Assembly: GCA_963746855.1 (NCBI GenBank)
Contig: CAVVDC010000015.1
Span: 55,295-119,294, forward strand
Reading direction: 5' to 3'
Source of the DNA: an uncultured Chloroflexia bacterium
GTDB taxonomy: Bacteria > Chloroflexota > Limnocylindria > Limnocylindrales > CSP1-4
Length of the DNA stretch: 64,000 nt
Part shown: positions 4,132 through 39,209 of the stretch, in pieces
Layout: each line of letters opens with the position of its first letter
Numbering within the stretch: the first letter of the stretch is position 1
Made by a program: the position numbers and the translations under genes
Notes under the pieces: model-generated
Database searches by the model: none
Told to the model about the DNA's origin: nothing
The model's input: the letters and a program-made list of their open reading frames with translations, nothing else

Positions 4132-4137
4132 GCCTCG

Positions 4138-6734: not shown

Positions 6735-6812
6735 GCGCCGCGCCGGCGGGCACGGCCGGCCTGCCCGGCGACGTCATCTGGCCGTGAACCTTTTTGCAGG
6801 TGGTCGATCTCG

Positions 6813-7090: not shown

Positions 7091-7200
7091 CGACCCCACG
7101 CGGACAGCCCGGGGACCGATGTGCGAGCGATCGCCGACGGCCTGCATCCGCGATACGGTCGCATCGCCCGCCGTCACGGCATGCTTGGAGTGAAACCGAC

Positions 7201-8319: not shown

Positions 8320-8414
8320 CGACGACCGGAGGCCGGCCCGGCGGCGCCCGGACCGCGGAGACCCTGCTCGATTCCCTCAGCCTGCTCGACCTCCGCGGGT
8401 ACACCGCGCTGGAG

Positions 8415-13546: not shown

Positions 13547-14313
13547 TCGACCTGGGGACCGCCGTCGAGGATCGGTTCGCCGCGGCGCAGGGCCCGGCCC
13601 CGGTTCACCCACAGGGACAGCCGGAGTCGCCAGAAGTCGCGCACCGCGCGGAGGATGACCGTGGGCTTGGCTCCGGTCGCGGAGCCCGCCGTCCGGGGAT
13701 AGTGCGGCACCCCGACCTCGACGACCGAGCGACCGGCCTCGCGCAGCTTGATGAGCAGCTCGGCCGAGAAGAAGGCACCGTCCGACTCCACCCGGATGTC
13801 CTCGAGGGCGGCCCGCCGGAACAGCTTGCAGGCGCCGTCGACATCGGTCACGCGCAGGTCGAAGAACGTGCGATTGGCCAGTCGGAAGGCGCGCGCGTAG
13901 AGGGTCCGGATGAACGCATCCGCGCGCTTGATGCGGAAGCCGACCACGACGTCCGGGGCGTCCGCCTGGGCCGACCGGGCCGTCAGGCGCCCGATGTCGA
14001 CCACCTTGAACTGGCGATCGCCGTCGGTGAACGCGATGAGCTCATAGCGGGCGGCGGCGAAGCCCGATCGCAACGCGGCGCCGTAGCCCAGGTTGACGGG
14101 GTGGTGGACCACCCGCACGAGATCCGGATGACGCGCCGCGAGCTCGTCCGCGAGGCGAGGGGTGCCGTCGCGCGAGCCGTCGTCGACGGCGATGATCTCG
14201 AACTGGTCGGCGAGCGACGGCAAGGTCTCGAGCGCCTCGGCCACGAGACCCTCGATGTTCGCCTCCTCGTTGTGCGCCGGGAAGAAGTACGAGAGCCGGG
14301 CGACCCGGGTCAT
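13543..14313 (-). CDS. GT2-family glycosyltransferase, polyprenyl-phosphate sugar synthase-like (DPM1/GtrB type)
   Basis: YFFPAHNEEANIEGLV...IIAVDDGSRDGT...NLGYGAALRSGF...IAFTDGDRQF. Its start overlaps the stop of the DUF2723 gene by 4 nt. Confidence 0.85.
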   Translation of the reverse strand: MTRVARLSYFFPAHNEEANIEGLVAEALETLPSLADQFEIIAVDDGSRDGTPRLADELAARHPDLVRVVHHPVNLGYGAALRSGFAAARYELIAFTDGDRQFKVVDIGRLTARSAQADAPDVVVGFRIKRADAFIRTLYARAFRLANRTFFDLRVTDVDGACKLFRRAALEDIRVESDGAFFSAELLIKLREAGRSVVEVGVPHYPRTAGSATGAKPTVILRAVRDFWRLRLSLWVNRGRALRRGEPILDGGPQVD

Positions 14314-15971: not shown

Positions 15972-15979
15972 CGACCGGG

Positions 15980-18900
15980 ATGCGCGGGGCCGTCGGCGCG
16001 GTCGTGATCGTCCTCGCGCTCGGGCTCGCCCTCCGCCTCATCATCGCATACCTGCTGCCGGGATCCGGCTTCGGCGTCGACCTGAGCGCGTTCCGGTACT
16101 GGGCGACCAACCTCGCCGACCAGGGCCCGTGGGGCTTCTACGAGCGCGACTTCTTCCACGACTACACGCCGGGCTACCTGTACGTGCTCTGGCTCGTCGG
16201 GCTCGTCGGCAAGGTCTTCGGCGGCGTCGGGGACCTGATCAAGATCCCGCCGATCCTGGCCGACCTCGCGATCGCCTGGCTCGTCCACTCGATGGTGCTG
16301 GAGCTCGGTGGGCGACGCCGGCTCGCGCTCGCGGCGGCCTTCGTCGCGGTCCTGAACCCGATCTCCTGGTTCGACAGCGTCGTGTGGGGCCAGGTCGACT
16401 CGTTCGGCGTCGTCTTCCTGCTGCTCGGCTTGCGCGAGCTGTGGCGCGACCGCACGGAGCGCGCGGCGGTCTACACGGTCATCGCCGCCATCATCAAGCC
16501 ACAGCTCGGGATCCTGGTCCCACTGGTCGCGGTCGTCACGATCCGGCGGGCGCTCTGGCCATCCGACGGGGGTGGCGGCGGGACCGACGGCCCGAGGCGG
16601 ATCCTGACGACCGGCCTGACCGGGCTCGTGACGGCGATCGTGCTGTCCATCCCGTTCGGCCTGACGCCCGTCGGCCTCATCCAGCAGATCGCGGTCGCCG
16701 GCGGGGGCTACCCGTACCTGACCGTCAACGCCTACAACCCGTGGGCGCTCATCCCGTCCGACCTCGGCATCACGCTCGCACGGACCGGCCAGTGGGTCTG
16801 CGATGCCGCCCTCGGCGCCGACCAGTGCGGGGCCGGCAGCGCCGTCATCGGGGTCGTGCCGGCCCTCGCCATCGGGATCGGCCTGCTCGTCGGGGCGTTC
16901 CTGGCCGTCCTCTGGGTCGTCGGACGGGAGCCGGATCGGCTCACGTTGCTCGTCGGTCTTGCGGTGCTCGCGCTGGCGTTCTTCGTGCTGCCGACCCGCG
17001 TGCACGAACGCTACGGCTACCCGTTCTTCGCCCTCGGGCTCATCCTGGCCGCCATCTCGCCGCGCTGGCGGGTGGCCTACGTCGTCCTGAGCGTCGCGAC
17101 GTTCCTGAACATGTACGTGGTACTGACCACGCTGTACCCGGACAACCCCTCGATCAGCGACTGGTTCGGGATCGGGCCCGCGATCCGGTCCGAGGCTGGC
17201 GTGGCGCTGATCGTGCTGCTCCACACGGTCGCCTTCGCCTGGTGCGCCCTCCAACTGCGGGTCAAGGCCCGCGACCGCCTGGAGGACGAGCTCGAACGCG
17301 CGTCCGTCGAGCCCGGGGCGTGGGAACCCGAGACGGAGCGCGCACCGGCCGACGGCTCGCTCACCGACCCCGAGCCGCGCACCGGCGTCGGGTCGCCACG
17401 ACCGGCCTGGTCGGCGCCGGCGCCGCCGGACGCGTCGGCGGCCGCACCGGCCGCGATCGCCGTCGCGGCGGCCGCGGAGGCCACGATGCCGACCTGGTCG
17501 AGGCCACTCGGCCTGGCCGAGAGCGGCGGGGTCGGCTGGTTCCGCGACCGCCTGGCCGAACGGCCGATCCGCGCCGATCGCAGCGCCTCTCTGCGCCACG
17601 AGACCGGCGGCCGACTGGACCGCCTGGACCTGTGGATCCTCGCCGTGCTGGTAGTGGCCTGCCTCACGCTTCGGACGTTCCGACTGCCCGAGCCGTACCA
17701 GATGCACTTCGACGAGGTCTACCACGCCCGGACCGCCACCGAGTTCCTCCAGTTCTGGCGCTACGGGATCTCGCACGACATCTACGAGTGGACGCACCCG
17801 CATCTCGCCAAGTACGCGATGGCGCTCGGCATCATGGCCTGGGGCGAGGACGACGTCAGCGCGATGAGCGACCTGGGCGTGCCGGTGCGGGCGGCGGTGG
17901 CCGAGCCGCGCCGCGACGATGCGACGGCTCCGGGCGGCCGCGCCGGCGAGCGCCTGCACGTGGCGACGGGCTCGGAGATCCGGACCTATGACCTGCATTC
18001 CCGGTCTTTGATCGCGACGCTCGCGGCGCCCGGGGTCAGCGCGCTCGCCATCGATCCGAGTGGCGAGCAGCTCGTGGTCGGCTTCGACGACGGACGCCTG
18101 GCCACGCTCGACCTGAACGCCATCGGACCTGACGCGGCTGCCAGCGGCGTCACCCCCCAACCACTCGGCAACGTGGCCGGCGCCGTGGACCTGCTGCACG
18201 TCACGAAGGACGGGGCCACGGTCATGGTCGGGTCGGGCGACCACCTCGACGCGCTCGACCTCTCGACCGGCGCGGTCGTCGGGGGCGTGGACCTGCCCGG
18301 CCTCGTGGACCTCGCCGACGGCGGCAACGGCGCCGCATTGATCGCGACCATCGAACAGGTCGACGATCCCGCGGCGGAGGCCGCCGTCCTCGCCGAGCTT
18401 CTCGCCGGTGACGCCGCCGATTACGAGGCGGACCTGTCGGGGGCCGGCCCCACGGTCATCCTCGGCAGCCCGGGCACCAGCGACACGCGGAAGAAGGTCG
18501 AGACCGCGATCGCCGACGGGCGCCTGCCGGGCGTCGAGATCCAGGACGTTGCCAGGGTCGCCGCCGCGACGGGCGACGGGGTCACGTTCGTCGATCCGGC
18601 GGGTGCCCGGGTCGTCTCGACGATCGGGCTCGACGGCGGCGCCCACGGCCTGGCCGAGGTCACCGGCCTGGAGGACCCGAAGCTGTTCGTGACGTCGGGA
18701 CCGTCGGGCACGCCGGTTTACCACGTCGTCGTCATCGGCGGCGACAAGGCCGCGAACGGGCCGGTCGACCAGGGTGCCCACCCGCTGCCTGGGCCCGGCA
18801 CGAAGGTCGTGTACGACGAGGCCAGCCAGATGGTCCACATCCTGGGCCTCGCTCCGAAAGCGCCGCGCCAGGACGTCGACACGACGACGGCGGGTCCGTG

Positions 18901-21229
18901 GACCGTCTACGTCGTCGAGCCGCACGGCAACGCGGTCTTCGCCGACGCGGCGCTCCCGACGGGTTTCGAGCCGGCCGCGTGGGCCGCCGACGTCGCCGCC
19001 GACGACCCGGCTGGCGACCGGCAGGAGCTGCTCGTCCTCGACGGCGACGGGTCGATGGCAGCGATCGAGCTTGGCTCGCACGCCTTCGCGTGGCGCCTGC
19101 CGGGGGTCATCTTCGGCGCGCTGACCGCCGCCTGCCTCTACCTGTTGGCGCGGATCCTCTTCCGGCGACGCTTCGTGGCCCTGCTGGTCGGGCTCTTCGT
19201 GCTGGTCGATGGGATGTTCTTCGTCCAGTCGCGGATCGGGATGAACGACGTCTACGTCGGCTTCTTCATCGTGGCCGCCTACATGGCCTTCGCGGCCGTC
19301 TGGACGGGCTGGTGGCGGGGCCGCAGCGCGTTCTGGGTCGCGTTGCCGCTCATCGGGGCGCTGCTGGGCCTCGCTCTCGCGAGCAAGTGGGTCGCGCTCT
19401 ATGCGATCGGTGGCGTGGCGCTGCTCATCCTCGTGCGCAGTGCGCTCGGACGGGTCGTCGCGATCCTCGGGCTGATCGCCCTGACCGGCGTGCTCGGGTA
19501 CATGGCGATGAGCGTTCCCGAGGGCCAGGGCTTCGGGAACCTGACGTTCCTGCTCGTGATGATGGCGCTGACGCTCATCGCGGTGGTGGTGGCGGTCATC
19601 CATCCGATCGCCTGGACCGACGAGGAGATGCGCTTCGCCGTGATCGCGCCGGCGGCGCTCGGCGCGCTCGTCTTCTTCGGCGCCCTGACCCTCGGGCGGC
19701 TCGACGCCCAGCTGGTCATCGGCAACCTGGCCATCACGCCCCTCCGCATGGCCATCTCGCTCGGCCTCGGCTCGGTCGCGGTCGTGGTGCTGTTCACCCT
19801 TGGCGGCCGTCTCGGGTTCGGGCCGCTGGCGGTCCCGCCCGGACCCGGCCGACCCGGCTACGGCCTGGAGCCTCCGTCCCCGCCCCCCGACGGCTGGCTT
19901 CGTCCGGGCTGGCTGCTGGGCCTGCCGGTCGTCTGGATGGCGGCCTGTCTCGCCGTCCTGCCCATCGCGATCTACGTGATCTCGTACATCCCGTGGGCGC
20001 TGGTCGAGAACCACCAGCTCGTCACCGGCTGGCCGGTCGGCCATACGGGCCAGACCCTGCTGGACCTGACGGGCCAGATGTACCGCTACCACAACGGGCT
20101 GACCGAGGCGCACCCAGCGTCCTCCCCGTGGTGGGCGTGGCCGCTCAACCTCAAGCCGGTCTGGTTCTACCAGGAAGGCCTCGCGGCGGGTACGGCGGCG
20201 GCCATCTACGACGCCGGCAACCTCGTCCTGTGGTGGGTGAGCGCGCCGGCCATGGTCTGGGTCAGCGTCATGGCGTTCCGCCGGCGGAGCCTGGCCCTGA
20301 CCTTGATCGCGGTCGGGTTCGCCGCCCAGTGGATCCCGTGGGCGCGGATCGACCGGGCCGCCTTCCAGTACCACTACTACACCTCGCTGCCCTTCGTCGT
20401 GCTGGGCCTCGCGTACTTCGTCGCCGAGCTCTGGCACGGCGCGTCGCGCGCGACGTGGCGCTTCGCCCGCCTGGTCGGCGCCGCCGCGATCGTGCTGCCG
20501 GCCGCGATGTGGCTGTTCTCGCGGCCGTTGTGCGCCATCGTCGGCGTCGAATCGGTGAACCCGGGTTCGCAGGCCTGCCCGGCCGTGATCCCCGAGTTCG
20601 TCCTGACCGCTCGCACGGCCGGTTTGGCCATCGTGGCCGGCGTCGGCTGCTTCTTCCTCATCCGCGCGATCCTCGCCCTCGCGGAGAGCGATCGGGATCC
20701 GGGCGCCGATCGGGGCTGGTACCGGTCGATCGCCCTGACCGGGGCTGCCGTCGCGCTCGGCTTCGTCGCGGTCTCGCTGCTGGAAGACACGGCCATCCTG
20801 ACCCTGACCAGCATCCCGGTCGAGCCGCTCGTCCTCATCGCGGCCCTGCCGCTCGCCTACCTCGCCCTCGGCGTCGTCGGCGGGCGCGATCCGCGCCGGT
20901 ACGTCGTCGGCTTCCTGGCGGCTGCGGTGGGCTGGTTCGTGGTCCTGTATCCGAACATCGCCGCGCTGCCCCTGCCAGGCGCCATCGTCAACGCGTACCA
21001 GGGCATCATCCCGACCTACCTGTACGCGTTCCAGTTCCCGGTGAGCAAGATCGACCGCAACGCCTCGGTGGCGCTCCTCACCCCACTGCTCGTCGTGCTC
21101 CTCGCGGCGATCGTCGTGACGTGCCTGGTGGTCGCCTACTCCGCCTGGGTCTGGCGGCTGTCGCTGGTCGACGATGCCTCGGATTCCCAGAGCGACGCCG
21201 ACGGCCTCGCGCGCAGCGGGGGCGCCTGA
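15980..21229 (+). CDS. Giant (1749 aa) polytopic fusion of two GT-C glycosyltransferase modules. The second is PMT/GT39-like with a ~400-aa insertion in loop 1.
   Basis: Module 1 (about 15980-17263): GFGVDLSAFRYWATNL...DFFHDYTPGYLY...TRVHERYGYPFF, resembling Gpi18/ALG-like GT-C enzymes. Module 2 starts near 17624: YQMHFDEVYHARTATEF...WTHPHLAKYAMALG, then the insertion (17849-19078), then FAWRLPGVIFGAL...VDGMFFVQSRIGMNDVY and a PMT_4TMC-like region MYRYHNGLTEAHPASSPWWAWP. Start trimmed to ATG 15980 (MRGAVGAVVIVLAL). Confidence 0.8.
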   Translation: MRGAVGAVVIVLALGLALRLIIAYLLPGSGFGVDLSAFRYWATNLADQGPWGFYERDFFHDYTPGYLYVLWLVGLVGKVFGGVGDLIKIPPILADLAIAWLVHSMVLELGGRRRLALAAAFVAVLNPISWFDSVVWGQVDSFGVVFLLLGLRELWRDRTERAAVYTVIAAIIKPQLGILVPLVAVVTIRRALWPSDGGGGGTDGPRRILTTGLTGLVTAIVLSIPFGLTPVGLIQQIAVAGGGYPYLTVNAYNPWALIPSDLGITLARTGQWVCDAALGADQCGAGSAVIGVVPALAIGIGLLVGAFLAVLWVVGREPDRLTLLVGLAVLALAFFVLPTRVHERYGYPFFALGLILAAISPRWRVAYVVLSVATFLNMYVVLTTLYPDNPSISDWFGIGPAIRSEAGVALIVLLHTVAFAWCALQLRVKARDRLEDELERASVEPGAWEPETERAPADGSLTDPEPRTGVGSPRPAWSAPAPPDASAAAPAAIAVAAAAEATMPTWSRPLGLAESGGVGWFRDRLAERPIRADRSASLRHETGGRLDRLDLWILAVLVVACLTLRTFRLPEPYQMHFDEVYHARTATEFLQFWRYGISHDIYEWTHPHLAKYAMALGIMAWGEDDVSAMSDLGVPVRAAVAEPRRDDATAPGGRAGERLHVATGSEIRTYDLHSRSLIATLAAPGVSALAIDPSGEQLVVGFDDGRLATLDLNAIGPDAAASGVTPQPLGNVAGAVDLLHVTKDGATVMVGSGDHLDALDLSTGAVVGGVDLPGLVDLADGGNGAALIATIEQVDDPAAEAAVLAELLAGDAADYEADLSGAGPTVILGSPGTSDTRKKVETAIADGRLPGVEIQDVARVAAATGDGVTFVDPAGARVVSTIGLDGGAHGLAEVTGLEDPKLFVTSGPSGTPVYHVVVIGGDKAANGPVDQGAHPLPGPGTKVVYDEASQMVHILGLAPKAPRQDVDTTTAGPWTVYVVEPHGNAVFADAALPTGFEPAAWAADVAADDPAGDRQELLVLDGDGSMAAIELGSHAFAWRLPGVIFGALTAACLYLLARILFRRRFVALLVGLFVLVDGMFFVQSRIGMNDVYVGFFIVAAYMAFAAVWTGWWRGRSAFWVALPLIGALLGLALASKWVALYAIGGVALLILVRSALGRVVAILGLIALTGVLGYMAMSVPEGQGFGNLTFLLVMMALTLIAVVVAVIHPIAWTDEEMRFAVIAPAALGALVFFGALTLGRLDAQLVIGNLAITPLRMAISLGLGSVAVVVLFTLGGRLGFGPLAVPPGPGRPGYGLEPPSPPPDGWLRPGWLLGLPVVWMAACLAVLPIAIYVISYIPWALVENHQLVTGWPVGHTGQTLLDLTGQMYRYHNGLTEAHPASSPWWAWPLNLKPVWFYQEGLAAGTAAAIYDAGNLVLWWVSAPAMVWVSVMAFRRRSLALTLIAVGFAAQWIPWARIDRAAFQYHYYTSLPFVVLGLAYFVAELWHGASRATWRFARLVGAAAIVLPAAMWLFSRPLCAIVGVESVNPGSQACPAVIPEFVLTARTAGLAIVAGVGCFFLIRAILALAESDRDPGADRGWYRSIALTGAAVALGFVAVSLLEDTAILTLTSIPVEPLVLIAALPLAYLALGVVGGRDPRRYVVGFLAAAVGWFVVLYPNIAALPLPGAIVNAYQGIIPTYLYAFQFPVSKIDRNASVALLTPLLVVLLAAIVVTCLVVAYSAWVWRLSLVDDASDSQSDADGLARSGGA

Positions 21230-22380
21230 GGGATCGGCGCCCGGAAGCCCTCCGGCAGGCGCCCCGTCGAGGCCAGTCGCCGGATCACGAACCCGTAGTA
21301 CTCCTCCACCTTGGCCGTGACGCGCGGCCAGCCGAACTCTTCGGCCCGCTGGCGACCGTTCGCGCTCATCTCGGCACGGAGCGCCGGTTCGTCGACCAGG
21401 CGGGCGATGGCCACCGCGAGGGCCTTCGGGTCGCGCGGCGGGACCAGCAGGCCTTCCCGTCCCCGTCGGACCACGCCCTTGTAGCCGTGGATGTCCGAGG
21501 CGACGATCGGGGCGCCGCCGGCCATCGCCTCGAGCAGGACGATCCCGAACAATTCGCCGCCGGTCGCGGGCGACGCGAAGATCGTGGCCGTGCGGTAGAG
21601 CTGCGCCTTCTCCTCCTCGCTGACGCGGCCCAGGAACTCGACGCCCTGGAGACCGCGCGTGGCCACGTACCGGCGTGCCTCGCGCTCCTGCGGCCCGGAC
21701 CCGACGACCAGCAGGCGCGTGCCGTAGCCGGTCTTGCGCAGGATCCGCTGGGCCTTCAGGAGGTCCAGCAGCCCCTTGCGCGGCTCGTGCCGGCCGACGA
21801 ACAGGACGTTCGGCGTCCCGTCCTGCCAGCGCGCGAGTGGCACGGCGTTGGCGAAACGGGGGATGTCGACGCCGTTGGGGATCACCTTGTAGTCGCCCGG
21901 GAAGAAGCGGTCGATGAAGTGGCGGGCCGCGGCGCTGACCGCGATCCGGCCGTGGAGGCGGGCGGCATGGCCGCGCATCATCCGGCTGCCAAGCTCGTAT
22001 GACGGCGAGAAGCCGGCGTAGGCGTGGAAGGTGGCGACGTTCACGCTGGTCGACTCGCGCAGCATGAACAGCGAGAGGAACGGCACGAACGGCTCGTGGA
22101 AGTGGAGCAGGTCGAAGCGCTCGCGCTCGAGCAGTCGCTGGACCTGGGTGATGTAGCGCGGCGAGAACGTCAGCGTCCCCACCGAGCCGTTGGTCGGCAT
22201 CGAGAACCCGACGCCGATGCGCAGGATGTCGCCCTCCGACGAGCGCTGGGGTCCGTGGCTGGCGGTGACGATCCGGACGTCATGGCCGCTCAGCCGGAGG
22301 TTCTCGTAGAGGAAGCGGACGTGCTGGGCGACACCGCCTGCTTCGGGGTAGATGTACGGGCAGACGAGGCCGATCTTCAT
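21136..22380 (-). CDS. pimA: GT4 glycosyltransferase, PimA-like phosphatidylinositol alpha-mannosyltransferase
   Basis: MKIGLVCPYIYPEAGGVAQHV...FHEPFVP...RHEPRKGL...GGELFGIVLLEAMAGGAPIVASD (E-x7-E region). ATG 22380 overlaps the PHP gene stop (ATGA). Operon context with PIP synthase, Ino1 and acyltransferases. The symbol is assigned by homology and context, not proven. Confidence 0.8.
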   Translation of the reverse strand: MKIGLVCPYIYPEAGGVAQHVRFLYENLRLSGHDVRIVTASHGPQRSSEGDILRIGVGFSMPTNGSVGTLTFSPRYITQVQRLLERERFDLLHFHEPFVPFLSLFMLRESTSVNVATFHAYAGFSPSYELGSRMMRGHAARLHGRIAVSAAARHFIDRFFPGDYKVIPNGVDIPRFANAVPLARWQDGTPNVLFVGRHEPRKGLLDLLKAQRILRKTGYGTRLLVVGSGPQEREARRYVATRGLQGVEFLGRVSEEEKAQLYRTATIFASPATGGELFGIVLLEAMAGGAPIVASDIHGYKGVVRRGREGLLVPPRDPKALAVAIARLVDEPALRAEMSANGRQRAEEFGWPRVTAKVEEYYGFVIRRLASTGRLPEGFRAPIPQAPPLRARPSASLWESEASSTSDSRQTQAE

Positions 22381-23183
22381 GGCTCGTGCCGGGGCGGTCG
22401 CAGCCGGCCGCCCGGGTAGCCGTGATCGCGGCCCGTCCCGTCCTGGCGCCACCGGCCGACGAGCTCGTCGCGGGCATCGCGCCCGCGCTTGGACAGCTGT
22501 CGTCCGAAGACGCTCAGCTGGCCGCTCGCCCCGTGGAACGTCCCGTGATGCTCGGTCCCGCCGGTCGCGATGGCGTCGCGCAGGTCGTCTGCCGTCCGGC
22601 CCGGGAAGCTGGTCCAGCCGGCGCCGACTGCGGTGAGCGCGTGCGCATCGCTGTTGCCGATGTGGGCGAGGCCGTATCGATCGGCGAAGCGCACGACCCG
22701 CGCGTGCCACGGACGCCCGAGCGCGGTCGGGTTGAAGGTCTCGATGGCGTCCGGGTGGAACCGCTCGTCCATGTCCTCGATGAGGCGGCGCAGGACCCAG
22801 CCCTGCGCACACAACGGGACGGGCACGAGCGGGTGGGCCGGCACCGCGAGGCCGCCGGCGTCGTGGACGGCCGCGATCGTGTCCCGGAGCGAGCGGTACG
22901 GTCGGATCCGGGTCTCGATGAAGAGCGCGAGGAGATGGCCGCCGCGGGTGGTGACCTCCTCGCCGATGACGATCTCGACGGGCATCCCGCGATCCGCCGC
23001 GATCCGCCGCGCCGCCAGCGCGGCATCGATCCGATCGTGGTCGGTGATGGCGATGACGTCGAGGTCGCCCCGGGCGACGACGTGGTCGAGGATCGTCGTG
23101 ACGCCGGCCGTCCCGTCCGAGGCGACCGTGTGGATGTGGAGGTCCGCCCGGCCGAGGCGCGCCGGGGCGGGCTCGCCCGCCAC
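22377..23183 (-). CDS. PHP-family metal-dependent phosphoesterase
   Basis: ADLHIHTVASDG...IAITDHD...AHP motifs of the polymerase/histidinol-phosphatase (PHP) fold. Confidence 0.85.
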   Translation of the reverse strand: MAGEPAPARLGRADLHIHTVASDGTAGVTTILDHVVARGDLDVIAITDHDRIDAALAARRIAADRGMPVEIVIGEEVTTRGGHLLALFIETRIRPYRSLRDTIAAVHDAGGLAVPAHPLVPVPLCAQGWVLRRLIEDMDERFHPDAIETFNPTALGRPWHARVVRFADRYGLAHIGNSDAHALTAVGAGWTSFPGRTADDLRDAIATGGTEHHGTFHGASGQLSVFGRQLSKRGRDARDELVGRWRQDGTGRDHGYPGGRLRPPRHEP

Positions 23184-23207
23184 CGCGTCCGACGTCCGAC
23201 GCTGGGC

Positions 23208-24143
23208 TCACGCCGCGTCCGCCTCGAGGTCCGGCCAGATCGGGAAGAACACCGCCCACCACTGCGCTGGAGCGTCCTCGACGATCCGCTCGAACGCCGT
23301 GGCCAGGCTCGTCATCGTGGCCGTCACCCGCTCGCGCCGCGTTCCCTCGGACGGGACGTCGACCGGCTCCAGCCGGCCGAGGTAACGCCCGTGCGCGACG
23401 CGACGGACGCCCACGACATACGGCGTGGCGCCGCTCTCGACCGCGAGCATGGCCGGGCCGAGGGGAAGCGAGGCCGGCGCCCCGAACAGCGGCACCAGCG
23501 TCCCGCCGCCCGTCAGGTCGCGGTCCCCGACCAGCCCGACCGACGTCCCGTCGCGCAGGGCGGTCAGCAGCGCCCGTCGCGCCTCGCGCAGGCCCACGAT
23601 CCGAACGCCGGCCGCGCCCCGCGTCCGGACGAACCAGGCCTGGAGGGCCTCGTCGTCGATCGTCTCCATTGGCGCGACCGCGCCACCGACCCGTGACGCG
23701 AGGAGGAGCGCCGGCAGTTCGATGGCCCCGAAGTGGAGTCCGACGAACAGGACGGCGCGATCGGGCTTGAAGGCCTCGGCGACGATCTCGGGCGTCTCGA
23801 TCTCGAGGCGGCGATCGACCTCGCCCGGCCGGATCGCCGGCGTCCGGGCGACCTCGAGGTAGTACCGCGCGGCATGGCGGAACGCGGAGCGGACCAGCCG
23901 CTCGAGCGCGCGCGGGTCGGTGGCGGCTGCCTGTACGAGCGCGCTGCCGCGGCCCGACGCGGCCAGGGCGACGCAGACCCGCCGGAGGTTGCGCCGGGCC
24001 TGGCCCGCACGCCCTGGCGCCACGCGGTACCACAGGTCGCCGGCAAGCTCGGCCGCCGTCGTCAGTGGTCCCTCCGGAAGATGGCAGGCGAGCCAGGACG
24101 CCCCGATGAGCGCGCGGGTCCGGACGGCCCGGCCGACCGTCAC
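23208..24143 (-). CDS. Lysophospholipid/lipid A-type (LpxL/HtrB/PatA-like) acyltransferase, copy 2
   Basis: FVGLHFGAIELPALL (H-x4-E variant of HX4D) and LVGDRDLTGGG...FGAPASLPLGPAMLA. GTG 24143 overlaps the stop of copy 1 (GTGA). The track ORF extension to 24428 is out of frame with copy 1 and Arg-rich. Confidence 0.8.
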   Translation of the reverse strand: MTVGRAVRTRALIGASWLACHLPEGPLTTAAELAGDLWYRVAPGRAGQARRNLRRVCVALAASGRGSALVQAAATDPRALERLVRSAFRHAARYYLEVARTPAIRPGEVDRRLEIETPEIVAEAFKPDRAVLFVGLHFGAIELPALLLASRVGGAVAPMETIDDEALQAWFVRTRGAAGVRIVGLREARRALLTALRDGTSVGLVGDRDLTGGGTLVPLFGAPASLPLGPAMLAVESGATPYVVGVRRVAHGRYLGRLEPVDVPSEGTRRERVTATMTSLATAFERIVEDAPAQWWAVFFPIWPDLEADAA

Positions 24144-25246
24144 GAGACGGCCTCGCCGCGGGCGGGTTCGGCGTCGGCGGGGTCCGGGCCGGCGACCCGC
24201 TCGACCCCGGCTCCCGCGGGACCGGGATCGGGGCGTCCGGCCTGCATCAGCCGGGCTCGACGCTCCAGATCGGCACCCTCGGCGGCCGCCGAGGGCCACA
24301 GGGGCTTGAAGCTGTACCACTGCTCGGGCACGGCGGCGATCGATGCCGCGAGCGCGTCGGCCACGAGCTGCGTCACGCGCTGGAGTTCGGCCGGCTCCTC
24401 GGACTCGACGTCGATGATCTCGCCCCACTCGACATCGAAGCGGTCGTCCCCTCGACGCTGGATGGCGACGGGCAGGATGCGCGACCCGGTGCGGGCCGCC
24501 AGGGTGGCCGGACCGGCCGGGAGCGTGGTCCAGGCGTCGAACATGCGGACCGGGATGCCGTCATCGCGGTAGCCCCAATCGATGACGAGTCCCAGCATCT
24601 CGCGTCGACGGAGCACGCCGTAGATGGCCCGCAGGTTCCGCCACGCGATGACCCGGAGCCCCCATGCCTCGCGCTGGCCTCGAAGGTGCTCGAACAGCTC
24701 TGGCAGCGACGTATCGTCGGCGACGACGCTGATCGGCAGGCCGAGCTGGCCGATCGCCGCCGCGACGGCCTCGTTGTTACCGACGTGACCGAGCGCGAAG
24801 ATGAGCCCGCCACCGCGCGGGGCGGCCTGCCAGTCGCGGATGACGCGCTCCCGATGCAGGTCCGGGACCATCTGGGTGATCTCGGTGGCCGGGCGACCCG
24901 GCAGGCGCATCAGCTCGACGAGGTAGCGACCGTACTCACCGTAGGCGCGCAACGCCAGCCGGCGAACGCGCGGGTCCGAAGGCGGCAGGCCGAGGACGTG
25001 GCCGAAGTTCTGGTTCGACCAGCGCCGCTTCGTGGGCCAGAGCAGGTACGAGGCCTGCGCCAGCCGACCCAGGAAGGGACGCGCGATGGTGGGCGAGACC
25101 CGGGCGAACAGCCACGCGGTCGCGCGGTAGGCCAGGATCGACACGCGTTCGACGACGCGAGGCCGGCCGCTCCCGCGTCGATGCGGCGCCTCGAGTCGAC
25201 GATCCGTGGGACTCGAGGCGGTCGGTCGGCGTTGGCCGTCGGTCAC
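24140..25246 (-). CDS. Lysophospholipid/lipid A-type (LpxL/HtrB/PatA-like) acyltransferase, copy 1
   Basis: [15 protein letters not shown] (H-x4-E), [32 protein letters not shown], and [12 protein letters not shown]. Its start overlaps the ino1 stop by 4 nt. Confidence 0.8.
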
Positions 25247-26493
25247 TTCGCCGCGGCGGTCGCGACCCTGGCTTTCGTCCCGGCCAGCCGCTTGAGTGTC
25301 CGCTTGGCCGGTGCCTCCGTCCCCACGAGCGTCTCGTCGTCGTCGCCGCGGATGAACGCCTCGACCCGGTTGAACGCGATGTCGTCATGGATCTGCTGAG
25401 GCGGGCTCTTCATGAAGTAGCTCGACGGGGCGACGAGCGTGCCCTTCAGGCCACGGTCGAGACCGAGCTTGAGGCAGCGGATCGCGTCGGTGATGACGCC
25501 GGCGCTGTTGGGGCTGTCCCAGACCTCGAGCTTGAGCTCGGCGTTGAGCGGCACGTCGCCGAAGGTCGTGCCCTCCATCCGGATGTAGCACCACTTGCGG
25601 TCGAGCAGCCACGGCACGTGGTCGCTCGGGCCGACGTGGACGTCATCGGGATCCATCTCGTAGTCGAGCATGGAGGTGACGGCGTTGGTCTTGCTGATCT
25701 TCTTGGACTCGAGGCGTTCGCGCTCGAGCATGTTCAGGAAGTCGGTGTTGCCGCCGAAGTTGAGCTGGTACGTGCGATCGAGGCGCACGCCGCGATCCAT
25801 GAACAGCCGGGTCAGGACCCGGTGGCTGATCGTCGCACCGACCTGGCTCTTGATGTCGTCGCCGATGACCGGCAGGCCGGCTTCCGCGAAGCGTCGCTGC
25901 CAGTACGGCTCACGCCCGATGAACACCGGGATCGCGTTGATGAACCCGACGCCGGCCCGGAGCGCCTGTTCCACGTACCACTTGGTCGCCTCCTCGCTCC
26001 CGACCGGGAGGTAGGAGACCATGACGTCGACCTCGCGCTCCTTGAGGATGTTCACGATGTCGGCGGTCGGGCCGGGCGCCTTCTCGATGATCTGGCTCAG
26101 GTACTTGCCCAGGCCGTCGTGGGTCATGCCCCGCTCGACGGTGACGCCGGTCTTCGGCACCTGCTGGAAGACGTACGTGTTGTTCGGCTTCGTGTAGATG
26201 GCCTCGGAGAGGTCCTTGCCGACCTTGTTCTTGTCGATGTCGAATGCGGCCACGAACTCGATGTCGCGGACGTGGTACCCGCCGAGCTCGACGTGCATCA
26301 GCCCTGGGACGAAGTCGTCCTTCTTGGCATTCTCGTAGTAGTAGCGGCCCTGGACGAGGCTGCTGGCGCAGTTCCCGACGCCCACGATGGCGACGCGGAT
26401 CTTGCCGTCGCCCCGCCGACCGGCCCCGGCCCAGGTGTTGCCCGGCGTCGCGCCGTTCTTGCCGTTGCTGCCGTTGGTTCCGTTCTTGGCCAC
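25243..26493 (-). CDS. ino1: myo-Inositol-1-phosphate synthase
   Basis: [18 protein letters not shown]...[29 protein letters not shown]...[19 protein letters not shown]...NFGGNTDF, typical of bacterial/archaeal MIPS. Confidence 0.93.
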
Positions 26494-26511
26494 TGGTGTT
26501 CTCCGTCGTTC

Positions 26512-27153
26512 CTACTGGGGCTGGGTTGATGGATGTTTGTCCTGGCTGCGGACATGGAGGATCCGCTGGATGACGGTGATGGTGGCGCCCACGAGGATGA
26601 CCCCGAGCGCGAACTCGATCGCCGTGATGCCGATGCTCGTCCCGGTCAGGACGATGCCGAGCGAGATGATCACGAGGCGGACCTCGCGGGGCATGATCCC
26701 GACCGCGGCCAGGCCCATGCCCGACGAATAGCCGAGTCCGTCCGACTTCGCCCGAGCGTAGCTGACCATGATCGAGGCGCCCAGCGCCGCGGCGGCCACG
26801 AGTACGGGCACATCCGCGGCGCCTGCGGCCTGGAGCCCGGCGATGACGCCGAGGAAGACGATGATCTCACCGGCCTTGTCGAAGGTGGAGTCCATGAACG
26901 CGCCGAGCTTGCTGGCCTGGCCCGTGGCGCGGGCCAACGTGCCGTCGAACATGTCGAACACGCCGCCGATGAAGACGACGAGGCCACCGACGACCCAGGC
27001 CTGCAGGCCGACGAGGATGGATCCGACCGCGGTGATCGTGAACCCGATGAGGGTCAGCCCATTCGGCGTGAGCCCGACACGGCCCATCGCGAGCGCGATC
27101 GGCTCGAAGACCTTCTTGATACGGGTGCGGGAATCGTTCGAGATGGTCATCAA
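26512..27153 (-). CDS. CDP-alcohol phosphatidyltransferase, phosphatidylinositol-phosphate synthase-like
   Basis: CDP-OH_P_transf signature D-x2-DG-x2-AR...G-x3-D-x3-D, seen as FDMFDGTLARATGQASKLGAFMDSTFDKAGE. Six TM helices. Adjacent to ino1. Confidence 0.88.
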   Translation of the reverse strand: MMTISNDSRTRIKKVFEPIALAMGRVGLTPNGLTLIGFTITAVGSILVGLQAWVVGGLVVFIGGVFDMFDGTLARATGQASKLGAFMDSTFDKAGEIIVFLGVIAGLQAAGAADVPVLVAAAALGASIMVSYARAKSDGLGYSSGMGLAAVGIMPREVRLVIISLGIVLTGTSIGITAIEFALGVILVGATITVIQRILHVRSQDKHPSTQPQ

Positions 27154-27155
27154 GC

Positions 27156-27488
27156 TCAGCCCGCGAATCCGAGGATGGCGCGCTGTCGTTCGGCGACCTC
27201 GTCGAACGCCTCGGGTCGGAGCCGGCAGACCGTCTCGCGACCGACTCGTCGGGTCTCGACGAGTCCCGCGACCCGGAGCCGCTTCAGGTGATGACTGACC
27301 AGGGGCTGGCTCAGTCCGATCTGGCTGATCAGGTCGGCGACCGAGGCCTCGCCCTCGGCCAATCGACGCACGATGCGGAGCCGGTTCACGTCCGCCAGGG
27401 CCTTGTGGAAGGCACGGAGGTCGCGCAGGTCATCGGGCTGCATGACGATCGAGGCGATCGTCGAGCGGATCCGGGCGGGGGTCGGCAC
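27156..27488 (-). CDS. ArsR/SmtB-family transcriptional regulator lacking the metal-sensing Cys motif
   Basis: wHTH LRAFHKALADVNRLRIVRRLAEGEASVADLISQIGLSQPLVSHHLKRLRVAGLV, with ASVADL where metal sensors have CVCDL. Start set at GTG 27488, 11 nt after AAGGAG (27500-27505). The track TTG start at 27536 lies inside the operator palindrome. Confidence 0.8.
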   Translation of the reverse strand: MPTPARIRSTIASIVMQPDDLRDLRAFHKALADVNRLRIVRRLAEGEASVADLISQIGLSQPLVSHHLKRLRVAGLVETRRVGRETVCRLRPEAFDEVAERQRAILGFAG

Positions 27489-27513
27489 GGCTGGGGAGTC
27501 TCCTTTGGGCGTT

Positions 27514-27575
27514 GCATCAACGACGGTTGATATCAACGGGCGTTGATGCTATTCGGGGCTGGCCACCGGTGTCAA
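27514..27575 (-). promoter_or_regulatory. Promoter plus palindromic operator upstream of the ArsR-led PI/PIM operon
   Basis: On the minus strand: TTGACA (27570-27575), an 18-nt spacer, then TAGCAT (27546-27551). The composite palindrome GCATCAACG-ACGG-TTGATATCAA-CGGG-CGTTGATGC (27514-27549) overlaps the -10 element and the start-site region. Confidence 0.6.
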
Positions 27576-27615
27576 GCCGGGGCCAGCCGCCGAATCGCCG
27601 ATCAGGACGCTCCCG

Positions 27616-30600
27616 CTATGGGAGCAGGTATCCCATGGCCTGTCTCATCACCAGGTCGCGGCTCGCCGCATCGGAGATGCCTTCGAACCCGAACCCCATG
27701 TAGAGCGTGTCGCCGGTCGCGATGACCGCGCCCTCCGGGAAGCCGGCCGAGGTCGTGCGGATGAAGTCATTCGCGTTCGACGCGCTTCCAGGCGGCTGGC
27801 CAGGGATCGTCCACCCATCAAGGCTCGTCTCGAACGAGGTCGAGCCGTCGGGGGCAACGATGTCGTCGACGAAGACCCCCAGGCCCTGGGTCGACCAGTC
27901 GCTGGCATACGCGATGGAGACCTCGATCTGCGAGCCCGCGTATGGGCCGAGATCGACCTCCCACTGCTCCCAGTTGCCCGAAGCCCCACTGGCCGCGTTC
28001 CAGTGCCCACTCGTGCCGGTCGGTGAGCACGTCCCGTCCGCTTCGAGCGTCTGGTAGTGGTCGAGGAACGGATGGAGGTCACGCCAGCCGGCGGGGCAGC
28101 TCTCGCCTGTGGCGGTGTCGGTGTGGCCATTCAGGTCAGGGAGGGTCGTCCAGTCCTCCGTACCGAGGGTGTGCGCCTCGACGAACATGAAGTCCCAGTC
28201 CTGCTCGGTGTCACGCGAGACCCAGAACGACATCGACCCGCCACCGGCGGGCACGTCGATCGTCCGCGTCAGGCGCTTGTAGGTGATGTCGGCGATCTGC
28301 GAGTAGACGTACTGCGATCCGGTGTGCGGCTCGAACGGGCCACCGGGACGATCGTAGCGGGCGACGCCGCTGCTCTCGAACTGCGGGTACTGATCGACGG
28401 GCAGCAGCCCACTCGTCGCGATGAACGACGCATCATGGTCCTGGTTGTCCGCGCTGTTCGGCCCGTTGAACGCCCAGGCCGAGCCGACGAATGGGTCGGC
28501 GACGCCCTTGACCCCGAATGGATCGCCCGTGTCCGGATCGAAGCCAGCGTTCTCGTTCACGAGCGAGGCGCCGAACCAGTACTGGAGCACATCGTTGACC
28601 GCATCGCCGGAGCCTGGCAGTGGGCGGCAGCGGGCGTTGATCTCGGGCAGCGAGCACTGCTTGTTCTCGAACGGGTCGTACAGCTGCGTGCCGTGGCCGG
28701 TCGCGTACTGGTGTCCGGCGTATTTGCCGGTGTACAGGAGCTTGCCGCCCTCGTTCAGGTAGTCGCGAACCTCGTACAGCTCGCGGAGGGCGAGGCGTGA
28801 CGCGTTTCCGGGGCCCCAACCCGGTTCGCGGGTGATGACGTCGTCTCCGGTGTACCAGACGACGGCGTCGTAGTGACTCAGGACGCCGAGTGCGTCCGGG
28901 GCCGTCCGGCCGTTGGCGTCGACGTCGTAGACGTCGTAGTCGATCCCGTTGTCGGCCAGCGCGTCCTCGTAGAACGACAGGTAGCTCGGCCCGGATGCCT
29001 GGACGGGCGACGCGCCCGTGTAGTCCTCGGCCGAGAGGATGAGGACCGGGTTGCCTGTCTCCGACACGGCCGTGTAGGTGAACGAGTCACTCGCCACGAG
29101 CGAAGATTGCGATCGGCCAAACCCCTTGCCGCCCGCCTCGAACCAGACCTGGACCTTGTCGTTGGGCCTGGTGCCCCGGATCTTGGCGCCGACCACGTGG
29201 TAGTACGTGCCCTTGCCGGGGCCATAGCGCTCGCCGCCGGTCCATTCGGTGGTCTTGGCGCTCTTGATCGTTCCGCCGTTGATCCGGTACTTGAGGGTGA
29301 CCTCACCGAGGCTGCGCTTCGCGAGGACGCGAACGACCTGTGGGTCGCCATACGACTTGTCGAACGTGAAATCGAACATCGCGAGCGCGCCGTTCTCCGG
29401 ATCGACCTCCGTCTGTGAGAGGTAGAAGGGTTTGACGGTGTTTCCGAGGTGCGATGTCGGGTTCGCCGGGTTCGTGGCCGATCGCGCGATGTCGAGGTCG
29501 AATGGGAGGGTCTTCTCGAACTCCGCCTGGATCAGGGCCTCGTCATCGGGAAACACGAATCCGCAGCCCTCACAACCCTCCTCGAGTTCCGGCGTGAGCG
29601 CGATCGAACCGGCGTGGACATCCGCGTAGTCGGTCGTCTCGCCGTTGGTCACGTAGAGCTCCTCGGCGGAGAGGCCCGGATCGAAGCCCGGGATCCCCGG
29701 GTTCGCATCGGTTCCGGCGAGCGCCGCGTAGATCGGATTGTCGGCGTCGGGTGTCCCGACCTGCCAGCCCTGCGGATAGAGGATCAGCGGACCATACGAG
29801 TGGTAGTTGACGAGGAACTTGGGCTTGACGCGGTCGATGAGGCCGGCCGCGGCCCTCGTCTCCGGCTCGGACTGCGCCGCCTTGCCGCGGTACGTGTCGC
29901 TCGAGAGCGCGCTGGATGAGCCCTCGTTGTCATAGTTCCAGTGCGCGTCGTAGTTGCGGTTCGGGTCGACCCCGTCGGAGCCCGTGATCTGGCCGTCGCC
30001 GTCGTTGTCGCGCAGGTTCCTGCGCCAGAGGCGCTCGTGATCGAAGGTGTACTGGTAGCCGTCCGGGTTGGCGCTGATGATGAACCACAGCTCGGTCGAC
30101 TTGAGCAGCTTGACGATCTCCGGGTTCCTCGCCTTGCGCTGATCGAGGAACCAGTGGAGGAGTCGCCGGTTGACCTCGACGGAGATCCATTCACGCGCGT
30201 GCTGATTGGACATGTACAGGACGGCCGGTCGCTTGCCGTCCTTGGTATCCCGGGCGTCGTCGGTGACCTTGAGGGCGATGATGTCGCGCCCCTGGAGCGT
30301 CCGGCCGATGACCTCGAGCTTCACGAAGTCGCGGAACTGCCTCGCGACCGCACGGAGCTCGTCGCGGATCCCGCCCGCCTCGTCCCATGAGCGGTAGACG
30401 TTGTAACCGGTGGCCGCCTGCGCCAGCGCGCGCTCGCGTGAGGTCCGGCCCTTGGCATCCCGGACGGCGCGGGTCTGGATCCCCTCCTCCTGGAGCGTCG
30501 TCCGTTCCGCCGGCGACAGGACGAGGGTGATCGTCACGGTCCCGTCCGCTTCGAGCTCCGTGTCCGTGATGTCGTAGCCGGCCTTGGTGAGCTCGGCAGC

Positions 30601-35156: not shown

Positions 35157-35206
35157 GCCAGCCGGCGAGCGATCCGGCTGCGATCGGCGCGGCGCTCGAC
35201 CGGCTC

Positions 35207-39207: not shown

Positions 39208-39209
39208 GG

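What the first reader, a model, noticed from the sequence alone, without database searches (positions are those of the whole stretch)
22377..23183. PHP phosphoesterase embedded in the PI/PIM operon: candidate for the unassigned phosphatidylinositol-phosphate phosphatase
In bacteria that make PI via the PIP-synthase route, inositol-1-phosphate (from Ino1) is condensed with CDP-DAG to give PIP. PIP must then be dephosphorylated to PI before PimA can act. To my knowledge, the phosphatase for that step has not been assigned.

This operon encodes Ino1, PIP synthase, two acyltransferases and a PimA-like GT4. Between them sits a PHP-family phosphoesterase whose stop overlaps the pimA start (ATGA). 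PHP enzymes include histidinol-phosphate and 3',5'-bisphosphonucleotide phosphatases, so phosphomonoesterase chemistry is plausible. The function is an inference from context only.
Basis: inference. Interest (0 to 1): 0.7.

Follow-up and report, generated by a model that had tools for sequence, protein, structure and literature searches.

The report
PHP phosphoesterase inside a phosphatidylinositol-mannoside operon
A small metal-dependent phosphoesterase gene sits, translationally coupled to pimA, inside the inositol-lipid operon of an uncultured soil Chloroflexota bacterium; it is a credible but untested candidate for the enzyme that removes the phosphate from phosphatidylinositol phosphate.

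Summary
On the minus strand, 21136-27536 is one tight operon: ArsR regulator, PIP synthase, Ino1, two PatA-like acyltransferases, a 268-aa PHP/PHP_C phosphoesterase (22377-23183) and a PimA-like GT4. The PHP stop overlaps the pimA start (ATGA).

The organism is a Limnocylindria-type Chloroflexota bacterium, not an actinobacterium.

The same seven-gene order occurs in all 54 orthologous loci retrieved. The 4-nt PHP/pimA overlap is kept in 43 of 52 of them. PHP also stays next to pimA in at least three rearranged operon types from other lineages.

The PIP synthase keeps both arginines that define inositol-phosphate use, so a PIP phosphatase is required. PHP is the only hydrolase in the operon. 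All nine trinuclear metal ligands are conserved. The nucleotide-binding insertion of TrpH/RNase AM-type enzymes is missing.

Three caveats apply:
- A bacterial PIP phosphatase is already known (Bacteroides BT_1525, PgpA family).
- In a PimA-seeded sample, 35 of 62 informative clusters lack PHP, and PHP tracks the acyltransferases rather than the PIP synthase.
- No biochemical evidence exists.

Verdict: a well-supported context-based candidate for a non-orthologous PIP phosphatase. Confidence is about 0.5.

The parts
27546..27575 (-). sigma-70-like promoter candidate (TTGACA-18-TAGCAT) upstream of the operon
   Evidence: the only promoter-like site in 20900-27900 (0.2 expected from shuffles). 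It lies 10 nt upstream of the ArsR start.
27156..27536 (-). ArsR/HTH_5 family transcription regulator, first gene of the operon
   Evidence: PF01022, 56.7 bits. It heads the cluster in the Limnocylindria loci and in variants B and C.
26512..27153 (-). phosphatidylinositol-phosphate synthase (CDP-alcohol phosphatidyltransferase)
   Evidence: PF01066; NF040950 131 bits and NF045883 123 bits, both below equivalog cut-offs; the best solved structures are R. salmoninarum PIPS and M. tuberculosis PgsA1 (E about 1e-18 to 1e-19). The RxxR arginine and the C-terminal QR arginine, equivalent to Mt R155 and R195, are both present (alignment, read against PMC4634129).
25243..26493 (-). myo-inositol-3-phosphate synthase (Ino1)
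   Evidence: PF01658; TIGR03450 534.7 bits. 4-nt overlap with the next gene.
24140..25246 (-). PatA-like acyltransferase A
   Evidence: PF03279; NF005919 PIM acyltransferase 122 bits; PatA structures at E=3e-19.
23208..24143 (-). PatA-like acyltransferase B (GTG start overlapping the stop of acyltransferase A, GTGA)
   Evidence: PF03279 105 bits; NF005919 124 bits. The start was read.
22377..23183 (-). PHP/PHP_C metal-dependent phosphoesterase, candidate PIP phosphatase
21136..22380 (-). PimA-like GT4 mannosyltransferase; its ATG overlaps the PHP stop
   Evidence: 209 bits, E=1e-60, full length to PimA 2gej/4n9w; the next best hit is 85 bits. One search shows the ATGA overlap.

Best explanation
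The 268-aa PHP protein is a cytoplasmic, probably membrane-peripheral, trinuclear-metal phosphomonoesterase. It would remove the inositol-ring phosphate from phosphatidylinositol phosphate (PIP), the product of the operon's PIP synthase, and so supply PI to the translationally coupled PimA. The operon would then encode the whole route: Ino1 (glucose-6-P to inositol-3-P), PIP synthase (CDP-DAG + inositol-P to PIP), PHP (PIP to PI), PimA (PI to PIM1), and two PatA-like acyltransferases (acylated PIM).

The PHP would be a non-orthologous replacement for the PgpA-family PIP phosphatase of Bacteroides.

Shown: gene content, operon structure, conserved linkage, an intact catalytic site, and the requirement for a PIP phosphatase. 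Inferred: the substrate.
For: 1. Pathway hole. The PIP synthase keeps both Arg residues that define inositol-phosphate use. PimA is a clear orthologue-level match. PHP is the only hydrolase in the operon.

2. Linkage within the class. All 54 loci with PHP at 42% identity or more carry the same gene order wherever the contig reaches. L081, L083 and L095 agree, and L081 and L083 have different outer flanks. The 4-nt stop/start overlap of PHP and pimA is kept in 43 of 52 loci.

3. Linkage survives rearrangement:
- Ino1-AcT-AcT-PHP-PimA-PIPS (L084, whose PHP cluster has members named 'Ca. Dormibacteraeota' and Chloroflexota; L091; L094 shows the same AcT-PHP-PimA-PIPS part).
- Ino1-AcT-PHP-PimA-PIPS (L090).
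- PHP-DUF2238-PimA (L088).
- PimA-PHP with the acyltransferases divergent (L096, L097, L099).
Sources.

4. Catalytic site. H16, H18, D23, H49, E76, H83, H117, D179 and H181 are invariant or nearly so. D23, H49, E76, H83, H117, D179 and H181 are invariant in 36 PimA-linked sequences down to 28% identity. The AF2 model is confident (pLDDT 88.6), and every Foldseek match with E up to 0.001 is a PHP-fold protein.

5. Relatives that act on nucleotides. The roughly 100-residue insertion of TrpH / RNase AM / Cv1693 is absent: query residues 81-96 correspond to chain residues 71-171.

6. Precedent. Lipid head-group phosphatases are repeatedly recruited from unrelated, often soluble, families: PgpA-type BT_1525 (PMC9246714), and HAD-type PgpP and PgpC (PMC11804483).

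7. Paralogues. The nearest paralogue clade is coupled to a membrane-lipid protein (mreB-PHP-LPG_synthase_TM) and carries no PI genes.
Against: - There is no biochemical or genetic evidence. Substrate specificity cannot be read from the sequence.
- In a PimA-seeded sample unbiased for PHP, 35 of 62 informative clusters have no PHP. None of the 15 acyltransferase-less Ino1-PimA-PIPS clusters with both flanks visible has one.
- In L096, L097 and L099, PHP stays with PimA and the acyltransferases while PIPS and Ino1 are not nearby. PHP therefore tracks the PIM-specific genes at least as well as it tracks PIP synthesis.
- The protein has no transmembrane segment (maximum Kyte-Doolittle 19-residue mean 1.14) and only a moderately amphipathic basic C-terminal helix. 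Membrane access is assumed, not shown.
- The best NCBIfam hit is a domain model named after carbamate hydrolases, so ester hydrolysis other than phosphate cannot be excluded.
- Conserved accessory hydrolases of unclear role also exist in the mycobacterial PI operon (Nudix Rv2609c, HIT Rv2613c; from my own knowledge).
Confidence: 0.5

Rival explanations
1. PHP acts on a later, PIM-specific intermediate rather than on PIP itself. One option is dephosphorylation of mannosylated or acylated PIP, if PimA accepts PIP. Another is action as an esterase/deacylase that works with the two acyltransferases in acyl remodelling.
For: PHP presence follows the PatA-like acyltransferases and PimA, not PIPS. 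PHP is present in roughly two thirds of the clusters where an acyltransferase is seen beside pimA, and in none of the acyltransferase-less clusters with both flanks visible. In L096, L097 and L099 it stays with PimA and the acyltransferases while PIPS and Ino1 are absent from the locus. The best NCBIfam hit is the CehA/McbA (carbamate ester hydrolase) domain model, at 71 bits.
Against: The full set of nine ligands of the trinuclear phosphoesterase site is retained. The correlation with acyltransferases may simply reflect lineage. A phosphate on the carbon next to the mannosylation site would probably hinder PimA (inference).
Confidence: 0.2
2. PHP is a soluble inositol-monophosphate phosphatase (IMPase-like function) that produces free inositol or controls the inositol-3-phosphate pool.
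For: It is a soluble-looking protein with no transmembrane segment. It shares an operon with Ino1. PHP enzymes hydrolyse small phosphomonoesters such as histidinol phosphate and pAp (known family chemistry, from my own knowledge; Foldseek matches to 2yxo and 2yb1).
Against: The PIP synthase uses inositol phosphate directly (Arg pair retained). An IMPase in the same operon would therefore destroy its substrate. PHP is coupled to pimA, not to ino1, and it stays with PimA where Ino1 is elsewhere.
Confidence: 0.1
3. PHP is a TrpH-like nucleotide or RNA enzyme (pAp phosphatase or RNase AM-type 5'-3' exoribonuclease), and its place in the operon has no bearing on lipid synthesis.
For: The closest solved sequences are RNase AM (9etk, 7ug9) and the pAp phosphatase Cv1693 (2yb1). 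JGI names the homologues 'phosphoesterase TrpH'.
Against: Only the N-terminal 70 residues align well, and the roughly 100-residue insertion domain is missing. NCBIfam scores are far below cut-off: RNase RNM 56.8 against 375, bisphosphate phosphatase 40.6 against 400. Linkage and translational coupling are conserved across several operon architectures.
Confidence: 0.07

Closest known systems
BT_1525, the PIP phosphatase of Bacteroides thetaiotaomicron (PgpA family; Heaver et al. 2022, PMC9246714)
   Same: It catalyses the reaction proposed here (PIP to PI). It is encoded in the inositol-lipid cluster next to the PIP synthase and the inositol-phosphate synthase.
   Different: It has an unrelated fold (PgpA, not PHP). 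Its role is backed by a knockout with PIP accumulation and by complementation; the PHP protein has no experimental support. The PHP protein gives only PHP-type Pfam hits.
TrpH/YciV family: RNase AM (7ug9, 9etk) and the 3',5'-bisphosphonucleotide phosphatase Cv1693 (2yb1)
   Same: They share the PHP barrel, the HxH...DxH metal ligands and the PHP_C region. They are the best sequence matches among solved structures.
   Different: The window protein lacks their roughly 100-residue insertion domain and scores far below the NCBIfam equivalog cut-offs. Its genomic context is lipid synthesis.
Short uncharacterised PHP proteins TM0559 (2anu) and BVU_3505 (3e38)
   Same: They are the best structural matches (Foldseek E 1e-10 to 1e-12; TM-score up to 0.73 on the target) and are of similar compact size.
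   Different: Sequence identity is only 18-19%. Their functions are unknown, so they do not help to assign a substrate.
Mycobacterial PI/PIM operon Rv2613c-pgsA1-patA-pimA-Rv2609c (from my own knowledge; PgsA1, PatA and PimA matches)
   Same: It also encodes a PIP synthase, a PatA-type acyltransferase and PimA in one operon. It has the same missing phosphatase step (PMC7502851; bioRxiv 10.64898/2026.07.15.738315).
   Different: The mycobacterial operon has no PHP, no ino1 and only one acyltransferase, and it carries HIT and Nudix genes instead. No actinobacterial record was among the 80 best of 282 relatives in the genome scan.
Soluble or peripheral PGP phosphatases PgpP and PgpC (HAD superfamily; PMC11804483)
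   Same: They perform the analogous step, removal of the head-group phosphate after a CDP-alcohol phosphatidyltransferase, using cytoplasmic non-integral enzymes. They illustrate frequent non-orthologous replacement.
   Different: They have a different fold and mechanism (Asp nucleophile, not a trinuclear metal site) and a different substrate (PGP).

Membership tests
PHP superfamily (Pfam PF02811 / PF13263) | Profile match to the PHP and PHP_C models | tested here: met
   PHP_C 50.1 bits (cut-off 21.3). PHP 23.4 bits over residues 14-80, just under the 26.4 cut-off.
PHP superfamily (Pfam PF02811 / PF13263) | Nine ligands of the trinuclear metal site (HxH, D, H, E, H, H, DxH) | tested here: met
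   H16, H18, D23, H49, E76, H83, H117, D179 and H181 are invariant or nearly so in the orthologues and in 36 PimA-linked sequences. Assignment of each residue to a metal site rests on my own knowledge of HisK and Cv1693.
PHP superfamily (Pfam PF02811 / PF13263) | Distorted (beta/alpha)7 barrel fold | tested here: met
   AF2 model with pLDDT 88.6 and pTM 0.84. All 36 Foldseek matches with E up to 0.001 are PHP-fold proteins.
TrpH / RNase AM / pAp phosphatase (NF047791, NF041577) | Score above the equivalog cut-off | tested here: not met
   56.8 bits against 375, and 40.6 bits against 400.
TrpH / RNase AM / pAp phosphatase (NF047791, NF041577) | Insertion domain of about 100 residues between the fourth strand region and the AHP motif | tested here: not met
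   query residues 81-96 correspond to chain residues 71-171 in 9etk, 2yb1 and 7ug9.
CehA/McbA family metallohydrolase (NF038032) | Score above the domain cut-off | tested here: not met
   71 bits against 80, covering model positions 4-184 of 315.
Bacterial PIP phosphatase (functional class; only proven member BT_1525) | Hydrolysis of PIP to PI in vitro or in vivo | not testable with these tools
   This needs an enzyme assay or genetics.
Bacterial PIP phosphatase (functional class; only proven member BT_1525) | Encoded with a PIP synthase that uses inositol phosphate | tested here: met
   the two genes share an operon, and the synthase retains both phosphate-binding Arg residues.
Bacterial PIP phosphatase (functional class; only proven member BT_1525) | Homology to the PgpA family | tested here: not met
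   only PHP-type Pfam hits. If it is a PIP phosphatase, it is a non-orthologous one.
Bacterial PIP phosphatase (functional class; only proven member BT_1525) | Co-occurrence with PIP synthase across genomes | tested here: inconclusive
   Co-occurrence is universal in the 54 Limnocylindria-type loci and is kept in rearranged operons. It is absent from 35 of 62 PimA-seeded clusters. Whole-genome profiles were not available.
PI/PIM biosynthesis operon | PimA, PatA, PIP synthase and Ino1 homologues in one transcription unit | tested here: met
   The gene junctions are -4, -4, 24 and -4 nt from Ino1 to PimA. There is a single promoter-like site upstream.

The most novel reading that the evidence does not exclude
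Compact PHP/PHP_C proteins of Chloroflexota and their relatives are a previously unrecognised family of cytoplasmic lipid head-group phosphatases. The pimA-coupled clade would be the PIP phosphatase. The widespread paralogue, translationally coupled to an LPG_synthase_TM/flippase-like membrane protein next to mreB, would dephosphorylate another membrane lipid precursor such as PGP. PIP dephosphorylation would then have been solved independently at least three times: by PgpA in Bacteroidota, by PHP here, and possibly by a PP2C-like enzyme in other lineages.
Probability: 0.15. Interest if true: 0.8.

Novelty: new variant of a known kind. Interest (0 to 1): 0.55.

Why it matters
PIP dephosphorylation is the one step of prokaryotic PI synthesis whose enzyme is known only in Bacteroides. 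It is still described as long-sought in mycobacteria, where PI and PIM synthesis is essential and a drug target.

A soluble 268-aa enzyme with a clear genomic signature gives a directly testable candidate in a second phylum. If confirmed, three things would follow:
- The substrate range of the PHP superfamily would extend to membrane lipids.
- This step would be shown to be filled by non-orthologous enzymes, which would guide searches in Actinobacteria and Archaea.
- Abundant uncultured soil and freshwater Chloroflexota (Limnocylindria, and relatives whose PHP cluster is labelled Dormibacteraeota) would be documented as makers of acylated PIM-like glycolipids.

It would not by itself solve the mycobacterial problem, because no actinobacterial member of this clade was seen.

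Tried and rejected
- Rfam (gathering threshold) and tRNA scans of the window found nothing. No riboswitch or RNA element is involved.
- Literature searches for any link between PHP and PIP or inositol lipids, for an archaeal AIP phosphatase, and for Limnocylindria inositol lipids found none.
- Loose tblastn (E up to 1) for PI genes around the 26 paralogue loci found none. The paralogue clade is therefore not PI-linked.
- Long database ORFs that fuse PHP with GT4 (P0244, P0370) or with an acyltransferase (P0384) were considered as Rosetta-stone evidence. I set them aside, because a single indel at the 4-nt overlaps would create them.
- I tried to name the lineage of L090 (57% GC, 3.6-Mb genomes) through cluster members of its MetK and PimA. 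No organism names were attached.
- Two low-GC members that nest in the PI-linked clade of an unsupported NJ tree (P0299, P0312) are not next to PI genes. The clade is therefore not exclusively PI-linked, or the tree is unreliable there.
- My simple ORF caller was too noisy in high-GC metagenome loci to annotate the PHP-less acyltransferase-containing clusters further.
- The window holds no second PHP and no PgpA, PAP2 or IMPase-type gene among the 45 ORFs scanned. The only other phosphatase is a trehalose-phosphatase-like HAD at 35015-36049, which is unlinked.
Full report
**Observation**

The window is about 70% G+C. GC3 analysis shows that 22377-23183 (-) is true coding sequence: GC3 0.92-0.93, GC2 0.53-0.54. 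The 268-aa product matches Pfam PHP_C at 50.1 bits (cut-off 21.3). It matches the N-terminal part of the PHP model at 23.4 bits, just under the cut-off. Its best NCBIfam hit is the CehA/McbA metallohydrolase domain at 71 bits, below the cut-off of 80.

The stop codon overlaps the ATG of the next gene (ATGA). The minus-strand genes from 27536 to 21136 form one tight unit:
- ArsR regulator.
- CDP-alcohol phosphatidyltransferase.
- Ino1.
- Two LpxL/PatA-type acyltransferases.
- PHP.
- GT4.

From Ino1 to the GT4 the junctions are -4, -4, +24 and -4 nt. The only sigma-70-like site in 7 kb lies directly upstream of ArsR.

**Identity of the neighbours**

- The GT4 aligns over its full length with M. 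smegmatis PimA (209 bits, E=1e-60). The next best solved structure scores 85 bits.
- Acyltransferase A matches PatA structures at E=3e-19. Both acyltransferases hit the NCBIfam PIM-acyltransferase model.
- The phosphatidyltransferase is closest to R. salmoninarum PIPS and M. tuberculosis PgsA1. In those alignments it keeps the RxxR arginine and the C-terminal QR arginine, equivalent to Mt R155 and R195.
- Clarke et al. showed that these two arginines bind the phosphate of inositol phosphate, are conserved in all PIP synthases, and are absent from eukaryotic PI synthases (PMC4634129).

The pathway therefore passes through PIP, and a PIP phosphatase is needed. PHP is the only hydrolase in the operon.

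**Organism**

The closest homologues and loci are MAGs labelled Chloroflexia, Chloroflexota or Candidatus Limnocylindrales/Limnocylindria. This is not an actinobacterium. No actinobacterial record was among the 80 best of the 282 relatives found in the species-representative genome collection.

**Conservation of the linkage**

- I compared the seven window proteins with the 80 PHP-seeded genome loci by tblastn. Every locus with PHP identity of 42% or more (54 loci) has ArsR-PIPS-Ino1-AcT-AcT-PHP-PimA wherever the contig extends.
- Every locus at 40% or less (26 loci) has no PI gene at all, even at E up to 1.
- Three further orthologous loci agree (L081, L083, L095), and L081 and L083 have different outer flanks from the window.
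- The 4-nt overlap of the PHP stop with the pimA start is kept in 43 of 52 loci.
- At the deepest divergence within the class, PHP is 42% identical. This is similar to PIPS and the acyltransferases (35-42%). PimA is 56% and Ino1 83%.

**Beyond the class**

The exhaustive search of 50%-identity representatives found 171 clusters at E up to 1e-30. I looked up the genomic context of eight clusters at 37-46% identity. Six are in PI clusters:
- ArsR-Ino1-AcT-AcT-PHP-PimA-PIPS in L091. L084 (Ino1-AcT-AcT-PHP-PimA-PIPS) and L094 (AcT-PHP-PimA-PIPS) show the same order on shorter contigs. The PHP cluster of L084 has members named Candidatus Dormibacteraeota and Chloroflexota.
- ArsR-Ino1-AcT-PHP-PimA-PIPS in L090 (57% GC, 3.6-Mb genomes, taxon not identified).
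- PHP-DUF2238-PimA in L088.
- The window's own gene order in L095.

Two low-GC members are not PI-linked: L092 (LytR/LCP-PHP-DUF5656) and L093.

**Reverse test**

I seeded the metagenome collection with a PimA alignment, independently of PHP. This gave 80 loci at 41-53% PimA identity. The results were:
- 62 loci have enough flank to judge.
- 24 have a PHP directly upstream of pimA.
- 3 have it directly downstream, in a further arrangement with both acyltransferases on the other strand and no PIPS or Ino1 nearby (L096, L097, L099).
- 35 have none.
- All 15 minimal Ino1-PimA-PIPS clusters with both flanks visible lack PHP. So do several AcT-PimA-PIPS clusters.

PHP-pimA adjacency has thus been preserved through several independent rearrangements, which argues for functional coupling to PimA. 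However, PHP is not universal. Its presence follows the acyltransferases rather than the PIP synthase. This is the main reason I hold confidence at about one half and keep a 'later PIM intermediate or acyl remodelling' rival.

Four PHP-less clusters carry a roughly 226-aa PP2C/SpoIIE-type phosphatase directly upstream of Ino1. This fits the idea that different phosphatase families fill this slot.

**The protein itself**

- The AF2 model is confident: pLDDT 88.6, pTM 0.84.
- Foldseek finds only PHP-fold proteins at E up to 0.001. The best are the uncharacterised BVU_3505 (3e38) and TM0559 (2anu), then RNase AM, PsfC, Bad1165, Cv1693, DNA polymerase III PHP domains and histidinol-phosphate phosphatase.
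- By sequence, the best solved relatives are RNase AM and Cv1693. Only residues 12-80 align well, and the roughly 100 residues that follow in those enzymes are replaced by 16 residues here. This, with NCBIfam scores far below the equivalog cut-offs, argues against a pAp phosphatase or RNase AM role.
- H16, H18, D23, H49, E76, H83, H117, D179 and H181 are invariant or nearly so in the orthologues. D23, H49, E76, H83, H117, D179 and H181 remain invariant in 36 PimA-linked sequences down to 28% identity. By my knowledge of HisK and Cv1693, these nine are the ligands of the trinuclear site.
- The bacterial paralogue clade has Asp in place of H83.
- There is no transmembrane segment. A basic C-terminal helix (219-246), only moderately amphipathic, is predicted, so membrane access would be peripheral. 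Soluble HAD-type PGP phosphatases set a precedent for this (PMC11804483).

**The paralogue clade**

The PHP proteins at 40% identity or less, from Chloroflexota including Limnocylindrales, sit in a conserved atpG-atpD-atpC-murA-mreB-PHP-LPG_synthase_TM context. Their stop overlaps the start of the PF03706 membrane protein. An NJ tree separates them from the PI-linked sequences (no support values). The compact PHP/PHP_C family as a whole thus seems tied to envelope and membrane genes, which fits a lipid substrate but does not prove one.

**Literature**

- Heaver et al. 2022 showed that deleting BT_1525 (PgpA family) in B. thetaiotaomicron abolishes PI and causes PIP to accumulate. They named it the PIP phosphatase (PMC9246714).
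- For mycobacteria, reviews still describe an unknown phosphatase (PMC7502851). A July 2026 preprint calls it 'long-sought' and proposes the alpha/beta-hydrolase EphE without biochemical evidence.
- I found no paper that links a PHP protein to PIP.

**Verdict**

The most likely function is a non-orthologous PIP phosphatase that feeds PimA (confidence about 0.5). The rivals are:
- Action on a later PIM intermediate, or an esterase role alongside the acyltransferases (0.2).
- A soluble inositol-phosphate phosphatase (0.1).
- An unrelated TrpH-like nucleotide function (0.07).

The finding is a new variant of a known kind of enzyme step. It is readily testable, and it is of moderate to good interest.

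Noticed in passing
L120 4004-4687, L158 4029-4709, L121 3009-3689, L136 1457-2134: In four PHP-less Ino1-PimA-PIPS clusters from metagenomes, a roughly 226-aa PP2C/SpoIIE-family phosphatase gene lies directly upstream of Ino1. It may be an analogous phosphatase for the same missing step.
   Followed up: partly
L059 6962-9736 (also L065, L069, L075): The nearest PHP paralogue clade sits in a conserved atpG-atpD-atpC-murA-mreB-PHP-LPG_synthase_TM (PF03706) context. The PHP stop overlaps the start of the membrane protein. A PF03706 gene also abuts the PI cluster in L090 (10635-11648).
   Followed up: partly
window 13543-21229: Three glycosyltransferase genes lie just beyond the operon: a 1786-aa GT-C/PMT-like membrane protein (15869-21229, convergent on pimA), a TMEM260/PMT_2-like GT-C (14310-15971) and a GT2 (13543-14313). 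A similar 2048-aa PMT protein follows the operon in L095. This may be machinery for extending a lipomannan-like glycolipid.
   Followed up: no
L158 7687-8727: An alpha/beta-hydrolase gene directly follows PimA-PIPS in one PHP-less cluster. It recalls the alpha/beta-hydrolase EphE recently proposed as the mycobacterial PIP phosphatase. This is a single case.
   Followed up: no
L096 1665-3987, L097 3672-5657, L099 6001-7831: A further operon architecture has PimA followed by PHP on the same strand, two PatA-like acyltransferases on the opposite strand, and no PIPS or Ino1 within the locus. PHP is only 28-31% identical to the window protein, yet the metal ligands are kept.
   Followed up: partly
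P0244, P0370, P0384 (database proteins): Predicted proteins fuse PHP with the GT4 or with an acyltransferase. These are probably frameshift artefacts at the 4-nt gene overlaps rather than natural fusions.
   Followed up: partly
window 1945-9512: The genes yidC and jag (minus strand) and dnaA, dnaN and a recF-like gene (plus strand) place the window at the chromosomal replication-origin region. The PI operon lies about 12 kb beyond this gene block.
   Followed up: no
window 35015-36049 and 36074-50659: A trehalose-phosphatase-like HAD protein and a long nuo (complex I) operon lie on the minus strand. Neither is linked to the PI operon.
   Followed up: no
L088 8871-9449: In one lineage a 192-aa protein with a weak precomputed DUF2238 hit (no Pfam hit in my own scan) is inserted between PHP and pimA, breaking the usual overlap.
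   Followed up: no
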